This document shows, piece by piece, positions 1-18,756 of a DNA stretch of 18,756 nucleotides. The notes under the pieces were generated by a model. That model searched no databases and was not told where the DNA came from. It saw only the letters and a program-made list of their open reading frames with translations. Source of the stretch: Tubiluchus corallicola (Eukaryota > Animalia > Priapulida); contig JAQGDQ010001981.1 in NCBI GenBank assembly GCA_030141605.1, positions 1-18,756 on the forward strand, read 5' to 3'. Position numbers and translations under genes: made by a program. Within the stretch, counting starts at the first letter, position 1. Every line of letters starts with the position of its first letter.

Positions 1-618
1 CGCCAAGTGAAAGAAACATTCAAGCCAACCAGTTGCACTTGATGTTATGACAAGTTTTTTTGCCAAACACAAGAACAGTTGGCTTGATGAAATGCACAAA
101 TTTCCTTTGTGCAAAATGCAATAAAGCAGAGCTAAGACTACGAAAACTATCATCTGCAGCAAACGCAAACCACTAAAATTGCTGAATTTTACAAACCGAC
201 GTGTGGAATATGATAGAATCTGTGAAAGTCTGTCTTAAATTTTACGAATTTTCTGAATAAGCTCATCGCCTCTGGGTTTTTGGAGCATCCAATCTTCTTT
301 GATGATAATCACTAGTGACACAATTTAAACCGTGACGAATCAAACACCAGTTGAACTTAATACTGGAAAAGCAAATTATTATGGAATTTTGCTTACAAGC
401 TTATCTCTCTTTAAACGTAATATCTATGGGCTTAAGAATGAACAAAGTGCTGAATTCAAGTAACACAATACGAATGGTATTTGTTGAATAACCTACTGAT
501 GAAACTTTGGTTTAAACCTGCTGATTTTAGTTTAAATTTGACGAAAATAGTTTTAAGAAAATAGGTAAACTTTTAAGGCAAAAAGTTTGTTTGTTTCTTA
601 ATAGATTGCTTTTCAGTA

Positions 619-1036
619 ATCATCATCATCATCATCATCATAACATCATCGTCATCATTGTCATTATCGTCACCATCTTCATCATAACATCATCATCATC
701 ATTATCATCGTCATCATCTTCATCATAACATCATCATCATCATCATCGTCGTCATCATCATCATCGTCCTCGACGTCGTCGTCATCGTCGTCGTCATCAT
801 CATCATCATCATTGTCGTCGTCATCAACGTTATCATCGTCATTATCTTCATCATCGTCATCATCATCATCGTCATCAACGTCATTATCGTCGTCATCGTC
901 ATCATCATCACCACCACCATCATCATCATCATCGTCTTCATCATCTTCATCATAACATCATCATTGTCGTCGTCATTATTGTCATTATCTTCATCATCAT
1001 CATCATCATCATCATCATCATCATCATCATCATCAT
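619..1036. repeat. Imperfect (CAT/CGT)n trinucleotide microsatellite
   Basis: About 420 bp of catcatcat/cgtcgt repeats; explains the spurious poly-D/M ORF 723..1052. Confidence 0.95.
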
Positions 1037-1718
1037 TAGGTTTCGGTATCACTTTCGATATCTTATTTCCAAGCTAAACATTCTATAAACCTGAAATTTA
1101 ATTTTCCAAGCATTTCTTCCATTTCTAGTGTATTAAATGTATGCCTAGCTGATCAACAAGTCAGTGTAGTCACTATAGATTCATTGTACACAATTCTCAT
1201 AAATGATATAGTTCTTACATTTTTAATTCTCCTTTCAAAAACAATAAGCTCCCACTTCTTGAAAATCCCAGTATGAATAACAGAACACTAAATTTAAGAT
1301 ACCTATATGCAACGAGGATTGTATTTCTCTGTATATATGTATATATATATAATAATCTTTATTATAATAATTATTATAATAAAAATACATCGATAATCAC
1401 TGATAAAAACTTTACAGAGATGATCAATCAGTGAAAATATGTGAAAAAGGCAGTAAGTAGGAGGTATACAATTTTAAGACAAATGTTTAAGTAAGTGGGG
1501 GATTTTCTTGTGCTTTAATGTGTTGTAACTTCTTCAGTTATGCAGAATTCGGGACGGCTTCTTCTGCACATATGAGACGTGCAGAACAAGAAAGAACAAC
1601 AAAAATTACATTCAAACTCGGCCAACAGACGAATTTTGCATCGAATTTTATTGGGTCATAAACTCCCCTCAAGAAATTGTCAATTTTAAGTTATTATTAT
1701 CATAGTTACAACAATTAA

Positions 1719-2103
1719 TACGATGGACCGGAAATAGGCCTAAAAATTATTACGATGGACCGGAAATAGGCCTAAAAACTATTACGATGGACTGGAAATA
1801 GGCCTAAAAACTATTACGACGGACCGGAATTAGTCCTTAAAAACTATTACAATGGACCACAAATAGGCCTAACAACTATTACAATGGACCGCAAATAGGC
1901 CTAAAAACTATTACAATGGACCGGAAATAGGCCTAAAAACTATTACGACGGACCGGAATTAGTCCTAAAAACTATTACAATGGACCACAAATAGGCCTAA
2001 CAACTATTACAATGGACCGCAAATAGGCCTAAAAACTGTTACAATGGACAGCAAATAGGCCTAAAAACTATTATGATGGACCGCAAATGGGCCTAAAAAG
2101 TAT
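1719..2103. repeat. 32-bp minisatellite, 12 units (TACRATGGACCGSAAATAGGCCTAAAAACTAT)
   Basis: Twelve tandem units counted by eye; variant units 4-6 recur as units 8-10. Confidence 0.93.
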
Positions 2104-2177
2104 TCTAACAACAAAATGTAGCACACTGTTCAACAACATTAATTATTTTAACAATTGCATTATCGCTAAACCATATA

Positions 2178-2226
2178 CTCGAATCTTATATATAAATATA
2201 TATACCAAGAATATTAACATAATAGA
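2178..2226 (-). mobile_element. Helitron 5'-terminal fragment (third unit of the tandem)
   Basis: Minus strand reads TCTATTATGTTAATATTCTTGG...AAGATTCGAG directly after the CTAG end of the preceding unit. Confidence 0.7.
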
Positions 2227-3082
2227 CTAGCAAAGGCCCCGCAAAAGATTTTGCGTATAAATACACGTGTAATTAATAATACGCGAACATCCTACCTAGT
2301 CCTCATTTATAACACAAAGCCCGTAACATCCTGCCTACTTACCTAACGCAAAGACTGTAGCAGCGTTTACTCCTGTCTACTGTATGTTTAACTAACGCAA
2401 AGCAGCTTTTTGCTGAATTAAAGCTATAAACAATAATGGATGACGTCACTACGATGCCTTTGCGCCAGCAGTTTTCTTAGGCGGAAATTGTCGAAAATAG
2501 AACACGTAATTAACTCGTTAATACTCCTCTCGGTGGACCTGCCCTAAAATATAACCCACATCATCGTGTAGCACTGTTCTTCTTCTTTCAAAGAGCTATA
2601 TATCCCTTCTGAGAGTCCCACCGGGCGCCGCTAGAACGTTTTTCCCGCAGGCTGTTTGGTCAAAATTTCGAAAAAATCGCGAGTTGGGTCCGGGAAAACG
2701 CCCGTTGCGGGGCGCCGTGGCCCTCTCGTAAATTCTAAATATGCCTACTACACCCACCGCTGAACGGGCTAGCTATCCATACCCAGCACCACCCTCGGCC
2801 CATTCCAGTTCTTCAGAAATAAGAGGTATAAGTTTTGCAAAAAACGGCCGAAAAATGGCCATTTTTGGAGGTTTTTCGCCCCCCCCTTCCTCCCAGTGGG
2901 CCCGATTCGAAAAATAAACCATCAATGGCACGACACTAGATCGAGACCTTTCGTTTGATGTATAGATCGCCGCAAATGCTGCCCTCGTCCGGGCTGTAGC
3001 CTCGAATCTTATATATATATATATAAATAAATAAACAAATATATATATATATATAACATACCAAGAATATTAATATAATAGA
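2227..3082 (-). mobile_element. Non-autonomous Helitron, ~855 bp, both termini intact
   Basis: Minus strand: 5' TCTATTATATTAATATTCTTGG; 3' hairpin CGCAAAA-TC-TTTTGCG, 9 nt, then CTAG. No TIRs, no TSD. Confidence 0.82.
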
Positions 3083-16526: not shown

Positions 16527-16575
16527 TCTATTATGTTAATATTCTTGGTATATATATTTATATATAAGATTCGAG
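16527..16575 (+). mobile_element. Helitron 5'-terminal fragment
   Basis: CTAG|TCTATTATGTTAATATTCTTGG...AAGATTCGAG, then unrelated sequence. Confidence 0.7.
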
Positions 16576-16649
16576 TATATGGTTTAGCGATAATGCAATT
16601 GTTAAAATAATTAATGTTGTTGAACAGTGTGCTACATTTTGTTGTTAGA

Positions 16650-17034
16650 ATACTTTTTAGGCCCATTTGCGGTCCATCATAATAGTTTTTAGGCCTATTT
16701 GCTGTCCATTGTAACAGTTTTTAGGCCTATTTGCGGTCCATTGTAATAGTTGTTAGGCCTATTTGTGGTCCATTGTAATAGTTTTTAGGACTAATTCCGG
16801 TCCGTCGTAATAGTTTTTAGGCCTATTTCCGGTCCATTGTAATAGTTTTTAGGCCTATTTGCGGTCCATTGTAATAGTTGTTAGGCCTATTTGTGGTCCA
16901 TTGTAATAGTTTTTAAGGACTAATTCCGGTCCGTCGTAATAGTTTTTAGGCCTATTTCCAGTCCATCGTAATAGTTTTTAGGCCTATTTCCGGTCCATCG
17001 TAATAATTTTTAGGCCTATTTCCGGTCCATCGTA
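16650..17034. repeat. 32-bp minisatellite, mirror copy
   Basis: Reverse complement of 1719-2103. Confidence 0.93.
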
Positions 17035-17718
17035 TTAATTGTTGTAACTATGATAATAATAACTTAAAATTGACAATTTCTTGAGGGGAGTTTATGACCC
17101 AATAAAATTCGATGCAAAATTCGTCTGTTGGCCGAGTTTGAATGTAATTTTTGTTGTTCTTTCTTGTTCTGCACGTCTCATATGTGCAGAAGAAGCCGTC
17201 CCGAATTCTGCATAACTGAAGAAGTTACAACACATTAAAGCACAAGAAAATCCCCCACTTACTTAAACATTTGTCTTAAAATTGTATACCTCCTACTTAC
17301 TGCCTTTTTCACATATTTTCACTGATTGATCATCTCTGTAAAGTTTTTATCAGTGATTATCGATGTATTTTTATTATAATAATTATTATAATAAAGATTA
17401 TTATATATATATACATATATACAGAGAAATACAATCCTCGTTGCATATAGGTATCTTAAATTTAGTGTTCTGTTATTCATACTGGGATTTTCAAGAAGTG
17501 GGAGCTTATTGTTTTTGAAAGGAGAATTAAAAATGTAAGAACTATATCATTTATGAGAATTGTGTACAATGAATCTATAGTGACTACACTGACTTGTTAA
17601 TCAGCTAGGCATATACATTTAATGCACTAGAAATGGAAGAAATGCTTGGAAAATTAAATTTCAGGTTTATAGAATGTTTAGCTTGGAAATAAGATATCGA
17701 AAGTGATACCGAAACCTA

Positions 17719-18136
17719 ATGATGATGATGATGATGATGATGATGATGATGATGATGATGATGAAGATAATGACAATAATGACGACGACAATGATGATGT
17801 TATGATGAAGATGATGAAGACGATGATGATGATGATGGTGGTGGTGATGATGATGACGATGACGACGATAATGACGTTGATGACGATGATGATGATGACG
17901 ATGATGAAGATAATGACGATGATAACGTTGATGACGACGACAATGATGATGATGATGATGACGACGACGATGACGACGACGTCGAGGACGATGATGATGA
18001 TGACGACGATGATGATGATGATGATGTTATGATGAAGATGATGACGATGATAATGATGATGATGATGTTATGATGAAGATGGTGACGATAATGACAATGA
18101 TGACGATGATGTTATGATGATGATGATGATGATGAT
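17719..18136. repeat. Imperfect (ATG/ACG)n microsatellite, mirror copy
   Basis: Reverse complement of 619-1036, same length. Confidence 0.95.
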
Positions 18137-18756
18137 TACTGAAAAGAAATCTATTAAGAAACAAACAAACTTTTTGCCTTAAAAGTTTACCTATTTTCTC
18201 AAAACCATTTTCGTTGAATTTAACCTAAAATCAGCAGGTTTAAACCAATAAGTTTCACCAGTAGGCTATTCAACATATACGATTCATATCGTGTTACTTG
18301 AATTCACGACTTTGTCCATTCTTAAGCCCATAGATATTAGGTTTAAAAAGAGATAAGCTTGTAAGCAAAATTCCATAATAACTTGCTTTTTCAGTATTAA
18401 GTTCAACTGGTGTTTGATTCGTCACGGTTTAAATTGTGCCACTAGTGATTATCAACAAAGAAGATTGGATGCTCCAAAAACCCAGAGGCGATGAGCTTAT
18501 TCAGAAAATTCGTAAAATTTAATACAGGATTTCGCAGATTCTACCATATTCCAAACGTCGGTTTGTAAAATTCAGCAGTTTTAGTGGTTTGCGTTTGCTG
18601 CAGATGATAGTTTTCGTAGTCTTAGCTCTGCTTTATTGCATTTTGCACAAAGGAAATTTGTGCATTTCATCAAGCCAACTGTTCTTGTGTTTGGCAAAAA
18701 AACTTGTCATAACATCAAGTGCAACTGGTTGGCTTGAATGTTTCTTTCACTTGGCG

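What the first reader, a model, noticed from the sequence alone, without database searches (positions are those of the whole stretch)
1..18756. Gene-bearing giant palindrome with two protein-identical ionotropic receptor genes
Seen: arms of at least 7.7 kb around a unique 3.4-kb spacer, each with one intact receptor gene, arranged convergently. The proteins are identical and the micro- and minisatellite lengths match between arms. Known: chemoreceptor expansions are usually direct tandem arrays, whereas gene-bearing palindromes are best known from sex chromosomes, where arm-to-arm gene conversion maintains them. Inference: either a very recent inverted duplication or a palindrome actively homogenised to keep two identical receptor copies.
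Basis: partly seen in the sequence, partly recalled or inferred. Interest (0 to 1): 0.8.

Follow-up and report, generated by a model that had tools for sequence, protein, structure and literature searches.

The report
Likely fold-back artefact, real receptor gene
The window does hold two mirror-image copies of a glutamate-receptor-like gene, but sequencing runs of two samples show a different neighbour at the left join, so the mirror is likely a fold-back artefact of DNA amplification or assembly rather than a palindrome the animal maintains.

Summary
In detail: arms 1-7696 and 11072-18756 are 99.25% identical around a 3,375-bp spacer, each with the same intronless 468-aa iGluR/IR-like ORF. 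The 'maintained palindrome' reading does not. In 3 of 4 runs laid (two samples, two studies) the spacer continues leftwards into other sequence, and none holds the window's left junction. In run X1 the window's arm allele has the depth of the spacer (ratio 1.02-1.09, not 2). The native left end has imperfect ~25-nt inverted microhomology to the Helitron-like end that starts the right arm, a fold-back signature. Arm differences are patches of a ~6.7% diverged allele, not accumulated mutations, and the window's two ends are base-exact mirrors. Best reading: a fold-back chimera or collapsed sequence written twice, then patched by polishing (0.65). Main rival: a real, recent, private fold-back duplication (0.25); these runs are probably not the assembled animal. 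The gene is real. It sits in a clade of short receptors without an amino-terminal domain whose 5 named members are all from Priapulus caudatus, and has roughly a dozen depth-units of close copies.

The parts
1..7696 (+). Left arm; likely the derived (fold-back) copy, standing where the runs show other sequence
   Evidence: its junction to the spacer is in 0 of 4 runs
   Evidence: begins with a full TC-type element end
7697..11071 (.). Spacer, 3,375 bp; real single-depth DNA
   Evidence: X1 contigs 7686-7958 (depth 179) and 7929-8765 (depth 196), 0 differences; X2 and X3 pieces too
7676..7696 (.). Left junction: element end cut short by about a dozen bases and joined to native spacer sequence that starts at 7686; site of imperfect inverted microhomology with about 11072-11095
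4763..6169 (+). Single-exon iGluR/IR-like gene, 468 aa: N-terminal hydrophobic helix, short N-terminus, S1-M1-pore-M3-S2-M4, no amino-terminal domain
12585..13991 (-). Mirror copy of the gene, letter-identical
179..608 (.). Patch (mirror 18578-18147) where the arms differ by 6.7%; second-allele or paralogue sequence
1131..1154 (.). Small patch: the right arm has 2 substitutions also seen on an X1 second-allele contig, but not that contig's 3 neighbouring variants at 1174-1184
11074..12058 (+). About 1-kb high-copy non-coding element with TC start and CTAG end after a shortened hairpin (Helitron-like by these termini, features recalled); mirror at about 6697-7692
2187..3367 (-). Cluster of further element pieces with hairpin + CTAG ends (mirror about 15390-16570)
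9553..10052 (+). Element copy inside the spacer
619..1036 (.). ATC microsatellite, identical in both arms (mirror 17719-18136)
1719..2104 (.). 32-bp minisatellite x12, identical in both arms (mirror 16649-17034)

Best explanation
The window is likely a fold-back artefact: one real locus (spacer, Helitron-like element, receptor gene and onward) whose copy likely looped back and re-primed on itself, so that the arm is written twice in mirror image. Shown: in two samples the spacer's left end continues into other sequence, and that native end is imperfectly complementary to the element end 3.4 kb away. Inferred mechanism: a strand copied leftwards to about 7686 annealed through this ~25-nt microhomology to its own earlier part at about 11072-11095 and was extended on itself, as in strand-displacement (MDA) or library chimeras; or the assembler closed such a loop and wrote one collapsed arm sequence on both sides. 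Later consensus or polishing with reads of a ~6% diverged second allele or paralogue likely made the short patches of difference. The receptor gene is a real member of a multicopy family, but the two identical copies are likely one copy.
For: (1): X1, X2 (sample S1) and X3 (sample S2, other study) each have one contig that matches from 7686 with 0 differences and carries the same loose end before it (265-480 further letters); 0 of 4 runs cover 7666-7685 (X4 laid nothing). The loose end has 0 matches in the window at up to 3 mismatches (23 of its 30 letters). (2): in X1 the window allele at 7 independent arm places has depth 171, 185, 287, 192, 205, 197, 196 against 179 and 196 for two spacer contigs: ratio 1.09 (1.02 without the 287 row), where two identical arms predict 2. 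(3): the native junction aligns to the reverse complement of the right-arm start at 22 of 29 columns; that site ranks 4th among distinct sites in about 4,400 windows scanned, and the top 5 are all ends of the same element. (4): differences come as patches, one at 6.7%, beside 4.2 kb of perfect identity with identical satellites. X1's two contigs over 379-585 carry 11 substitutions + a 2-base gap and 5 substitutions, which sum to the 16 + gap between the arms, as if the arms were reciprocal mosaics of two alleles (letters not shown by the tool; inferred from counts). (5): the window ends are base-exact mirrors, expected if the window is a whole hairpin-shaped contig (that it is a whole record is inferred). 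(6) Palindromic chimeras are common after amplification: 26-38% of mitochondrial reads in PMC13265396 (passages); artefactual inverted duplications reached an assembly in 10.1101/173872 (passages).
Against: The runs are Logan contigs, not long reads; they drop rare variants and the tool warns that depth is no copy number and that a filter leaves records out. S1 is probably not the assembled animal: X1 shows only non-window letters at 334, 1081/1085, 5212, 5484, 6236 and 6495, has no 0-difference contig over 379-585, and its two contigs over 149-319 both end at 319, which does not fit the right arm's variants at 302 and 318. So absence of the junction shows 'not in these samples', not 'not in any animal'. 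Whether the source DNA was amplified is unknown. [quoted passage not shown] The 16-bp indel at 7067-7082 is not carried by the 3 other element copies in the window and could be a real mutation. The junction has 1-3 bases fitting neither parent, which in vivo repair also produces. The spacer (3,375 bp) is close to the median of natural human fold-back spacers, 3,428 bp (PMC3907307, passages). The right junction was not tested.
Confidence: 0.65

Rival explanations
1. A real, very recent, polymorphic fold-back inverted duplication in the sequenced animal: a break or stalled fork near 7686 re-primed on the element end at about 11072-11095, copied the receptor region backwards, and a second switch outside the window returned to the chromosome; short allelic conversion tracts then added the patches.
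For: Same microhomology; spacer size like natural fold-back spacers and junctions at inverted repeats or microhomology (PMC3907307 passages); S1 and S2 are probably other individuals; the 16-bp indel and the untemplated junction bases fit in vivo events; the gene family is clearly duplicating (gene depth 11.5-13.2 spacer units, flanks 4.5-7.3).
Against: Needs at least 2-4 separate conversion patches, apparently reciprocal at 379-585, while a 140-unit microsatellite and a minisatellite did not change; needs a second unseen junction, since a simple fold-back loses the chromosome end (abstract of PMC3907307); base-exact mirror ends need an assembler explanation anyway; junction in 0 of 2 samples.
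Confidence: 0.25
2. An old palindrome kept identical by arm-to-arm gene conversion, as on mammalian X and Y chromosomes.
For: 99.25% arm identity with a gene in each arm; patchy divergence can come from conversion.
Against: Two samples from two studies hold a spacer with 0-2 differences but no left arm, so the structure is younger than that haplotype or not real; arm:spacer depth about 1; arms as seen are shorter than the >10 kb class in the listing, though the outer ends are unseen.
Confidence: 0.05
3. A Helitron-like element starting at 11074 read through its weakened 3' hairpin, captured the receptor gene and inserted a giant copy in inverted orientation 3.4 kb from the donor.
For: Both inner ends lie at the element's 5' end; its 3' hairpin is shortened (-1.9 against -5.9 kcal/mol in two other copies); the gene is flanked by such elements.
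Against: The left copy lacks about a dozen bases of the 5' end and does not start with a clean TC at an A|T site (rule recalled); the mirror runs on past two intact hairpin+CTAG ends to the window edge; gene depth exceeds flank depth, unlike whole-cassette copies; junction absent from the runs.
Confidence: 0.05

Closest known systems
MDA / library fold-back (inverted) chimeras and palindromic contigs (10.1101/173872, PMC13265396; passages read)
   Same: Inverted copy of nearby sequence replacing the native continuation; junction private to one data set; arms identical including satellites.
   Different: Arms here carry short patches of a second allele, which needs later polishing or consensus mixing; amplification of the source is not known.
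Natural fold-back inverted duplications with a single-copy spacer (PMC3907307; passages read)
   Same: Spacer of about 3.4 kb, inverted microhomology or inverted repeats at the junction.
   Different: Those are megabase events with terminal deletion in patients; no second junction is visible here and no read support exists.
Sex-chromosome palindromes kept by arm-to-arm conversion (10.1101/800185, PMC8327919; listing and start of abstract only)
   Same: >99% arm identity, gene in each arm, unique spacer.
   Different: Not shared between individuals, arm depth not doubled in X1, differences are allele-sized patches.
Divergent ionotropic receptors (IRs) of protostomes (PMC2924276; passages read)
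   Same: Lig_chan domain, no amino-terminal domain, single exon, lineage-specific expansion, incomplete glutamate-binding residues.
   Different: N-terminus about 70 aa instead of about 200; nearest named relatives are Priapulus caudatus 'glutamate receptor-like' proteins; descent from the IR25a lineage and sensory expression untested.

Membership tests
Conversion-maintained gene palindrome | Long inverted arms >99% identical around a spacer | tested here: met
   99.25% over 7.7 kb in the window
Conversion-maintained gene palindrome | Both junctions present in other individuals | tested here: not met
   Left junction in 0 of 4 runs; 3 of 4 show another continuation.
Conversion-maintained gene palindrome | Arm depth twice spacer depth | tested here: not met
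   Ratio 1.02-1.09 in X1; contig depths, probably another individual
Conversion-maintained gene palindrome | Sex linkage; orthologous palindrome with arms closer to each other than to orthologues | not testable with these tools
   No whole genome held; sex of samples unknown
Fold-back chimera / inverted duplication | Native continuation replaced by an inverted copy | tested here: met
Fold-back chimera / inverted duplication | Inverted microhomology at the switch | tested here: met
   22 of 29 columns; rank 4 among sites in about 4,400 windows
Fold-back chimera (artefact, not in vivo) | Junction in one read or one amplified read family only, in the assembly's own reads | not testable with these tools
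   Only Logan contigs were offered; source reads not identified
iGluR superfamily | S1-M1-pore-M3-S2-M4 architecture, Lig_chan domain | tested here: met
   Pfam PF00060 E=1.1e-20; GluA2 match 115-463; model pLDDT 78.6
Ionotropic receptors (IRs) | No amino-terminal domain, short N-terminus | tested here: met
   No ATD family in 19 of 19 aligned members at E<=0.01; 468 aa
Ionotropic receptors (IRs) | Loss of some glutamate-binding residues | tested here: inconclusive
   R135 (invariant in 19 rows) and T297 align to GluA2's binding Arg and Thr; the Glu position reads as N344 by eye only, HMMER aligned that stretch differently; residue roles recalled
Ionotropic receptors (IRs) | Phylogenetic placement with IR25a-derived IRs | tested here: inconclusive
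   FastTree of 56 rows: own clade of 19 (support 100), deep position unresolved; no reference IR set was included
Ionotropic receptors (IRs) | Expression in chemosensory neurons | not testable with these tools
   No RNA holder listed
Helitron (non-autonomous) | 5' TC, 3' hairpin followed by CTAG (features recalled) | tested here: met
   11074 TC start, CTAG end near 12058; full hairpins at about 3090-3110 and 2235-2255
Helitron (non-autonomous) | Insertion between A and T without target duplication; link to a RepHel element | tested here: inconclusive
   Flanks seen are G|TC or C|TC rather than A|TC; no empty sites or autonomous partner available

The most novel reading that the evidence does not exclude
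The birth of a palindrome caught in one animal: a fold-back primed at a Helitron-like end doubled a receptor gene of an undescribed priapulid clade of very short IR-like channels, and the new arm is already taking conversion tracts from the other allele; transposon-end fold-backs would then be one engine of this family's dozen-copy expansion.
Probability: 0.22. Interest if true: 0.5.

Novelty: not a real feature. Interest (0 to 1): 0.17.

Why it matters
If the best reading holds, it is a caution: mirror-image contigs inflate receptor gene counts and mimic Y-type palindromes in assemblies of rarely sampled animals, and matching satellite lengths should not be read as gene conversion. What survives is the gene: a short, intronless iGluR/IR-like receptor in a well-supported clade whose named members are priapulid, with many close copies. 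That bears on how early ecdysozoans built chemosensory repertoires. One search for priapul + ionotropic receptor + chemosens listed 6 papers, none titled on such a family; only PMC6307864 was opened (passages) and those passages treat canonical classes. This is a single search, not proof that the clade is undescribed. If the rival holds, it is a structural variant showing a mechanism of receptor gene birth.

Tried and rejected
Whole genome: none held, so outer ends, the native continuation and other copies could not be read. Expression: no RNA holder listed; not used either way. X4 laid nothing on 7666-7850; not counted as absence. Uncovered bins in X3 were not used. Depth rows: of 40 rows shown (414 not shown) I used 7 independent places; left out were repeats of the same contig pair (1555-1653, 1705, 1721, 4675, 5486), places where the window letter is shared with paralogues (4784, 4786, 4802; about 900), places with no window-allele contig (334, 1081-1184, 3157, 5212, 5484, 6236, 6495), high-copy element rows (4053, 4100, 7026) and spacer rows (9934, 10459, 10468). 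'Two haplotypes simply misjoined': rejected as the whole story, since most of both arms is the same allele while X1's second allele differs by 15 substitutions + 7 gap letters in 240 bp at 1444-1683. Other ORFs: 10731-11138 and 7549-7971 have no Pfam match; 1-620 has no long frame. Protein Atlas gave no answer. The first tree did not finish; FastTree was used (P0017 and rows under 330 or over 1200 aa among the first 60 hits left out). Earlier findings: nothing. The predicted model was not sent to a fold search. No supplements were read.
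Full report
1. Observation. The inverted repeat is in the window as described. Arms 1-7696 and 11072-18756 align at 99.247% (33 mismatches, 8 gap openings) and base 1 pairs with base 18756. Each arm has a single-exon ORF, 4763-6169 (+) and 12585-13991 (-), giving the same 468-aa protein with a Lig_chan domain. Satellites match in length. The differences are clustered: 29 of 37 events lie in 179-608 (6.7%), then small groups at 1131-1154, 2837-2839 and 7064-7102, with 4,224 identical bases around the gene. 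Random placement never gave more than 11 events in 430 bp or a clean stretch above 2,576 bp in 20,000 trials.

2. Is the structure in other data? No whole genome is held. Six runs were listed, four holding part of 4000-11100: X1, X2, X4 (one sample, S1) and X3 (sample S2, another study); all are Logan contigs. Laid on 1-11071, X1 covers the spacer with two 0-difference contigs of depth 179 and 196. At 7 independent places in the identical part of the arms the window's allele has depth 171, 185, 287, 192, 205, 197 and 196: 1.09 times the spacer, 1.02 without the outlier. Two identical arms predict 2. Beside it runs a second allele or paralogue about 6% diverged (1444-1683, depth 171; also in X3). 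Laid on the left junction (7666-7850), X1, X2 and X3 each give one contig that matches from 7686 without a difference and continues leftwards into the same other sequence for 265-480 letters; no contig covers 7666-7685; X4 laid nothing. That sequence is not in the window. So in both samples the spacer haplotype exists without the left arm. Limits: contigs drop rare variants, a filter removes some records, and depth is not a calibrated copy number. Several places suggest S1 is not the assembled animal (only non-window letters at 334, 1081/1085, 5212, 5484, 6236, 6495; no exact contig over 379-585).

3. The junction. Both inner ends fall at the end of a high-copy, non-coding element of about 1 kb that starts with TC at 11074 and ends with a hairpin and CTAG (Helitron-like; termini recalled). 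The right arm has the full end; the left arm lacks about a dozen bases of it and joins native sequence at 7686 through 1-3 bases that fit neither parent. The native sequence around 7686 aligns to the reverse complement of the right-arm start at 22 of 29 columns; among about 4,400 windows scanned this site ranks fourth and the top five are all ends of the element. This is what a strand folding back on itself over a 3.4-kb loop would use (inference).

4. The patches. At 1131-1154 the right arm has two variants of X1's second allele but not its neighbours at 1174-1184. Over 379-585 X1's two contigs differ from the left arm by 11 substitutions + a 2-base gap and by 5 substitutions; the arms differ there by 16 + that gap. 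By count, the arms look like reciprocal mosaics of two alleles; the tool did not print those letters, so this is inferred. Patches of 24-430 bp of a second allele on otherwise identical arms fit consensus or polishing by mixed reads; they also fit short conversion tracts, but several would be needed with no satellite change.

5. How it most likely arose. Shown: mirror arms, native continuation elsewhere, microhomology, 1:1 depth in X1. Inferred: fold-back priming in vitro, or a loop closed by the assembler with one collapsed arm written on both sides, then patched (0.65). Such chimeras made up 26-38% of mitochondrial reads in one MDA study (PMC13265396, passages) and produced false inverted duplications in an assembly (10.1101/173872, passages). 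Against: another MDA+HiFi study found almost no chimeric contigs (PMC11660948, passages), amplification of the source is unknown, and natural fold-backs have the same anatomy, with a median spacer of 3,428 bp (PMC3907307, passages). A real private duplication therefore keeps 0.25. An old conversion-maintained palindrome gets 0.05, a Helitron-borne insertion 0.05.

6. The gene. It matches GluA2 from residue 115 to 463, folds as a ligand-binding clamshell with channel helices (pLDDT 78.6) and has no amino-terminal domain. Closest relatives are two unnamed proteins at 66% and 42-44% identity. With 18 others of 384-533 aa it forms a clade with support 100 in a FastTree of 56 rows. Of 15 clade members looked up, 4 carry names, all Priapulus caudatus, as does a fifth cluster member added to the tree; 11 are unnamed. 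The animal is thus likely a priapulid or near relative (inference). Intronless, ATD-less, lineage-expanded receptors match the description of divergent IRs (PMC2924276, passages), so it likely works as a ligand-tuning subunit of a chemosensory channel; membership by descent and expression is untested. In X1 summed depth over the gene is 11.5-13.2 spacer units and 4.5-7.3 over its flanks, a rough sign of many close copies.

7. Verdict. Observation confirmed; maintained-palindrome reading not supported; the mirror is likely not a feature of the genome, or at most a private recent variant. Interest 0.17, most of it for the receptor clade. Papers and 49 other than the six named as read were seen as listings only; no supplements were read.

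Noticed in passing
4763-6169 and P0001-P0018, P0151: A supported clade of 19 short (384-533 aa) ATD-less iGluR-like proteins whose 5 named members are all Priapulus caudatus: a possible priapulid IR-like expansion not found in one literature search.
   Followed up: partly
4441-6660: In run X1 summed depth over the gene is 11.5-13.2 times the spacer and 4.5-7.3 over the flanks: many copies at >=90% identity, some with flanks.
   Followed up: partly
4591-4683 (mirror in right arm): A 93-bp diverged tandem copy of the gene's start region (4721-4813), giving a 21-codon upstream ORF like the signal peptide.
   Followed up: no
11074-12058, 2187-3367, 9553-10052: A very high-copy non-coding Helitron-like family with head-to-tail pieces; the copy next to the gene has a shortened 3' hairpin.
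   Followed up: partly
3701-4440: A second, unrelated very high-copy repeat (X1 depth up to 1.3 million) upstream of the gene; not characterised.
   Followed up: no
1444-1751: Samples S1 and S2 share the same ~6% diverged second allele or paralogue here, with the same variants listed in both: deep haplotypes or a fixed paralogous segment.
   Followed up: partly
8730-9268: 31-bp minisatellite, 17.4 copies, open in several frames; no sign of a gene.
   Followed up: no
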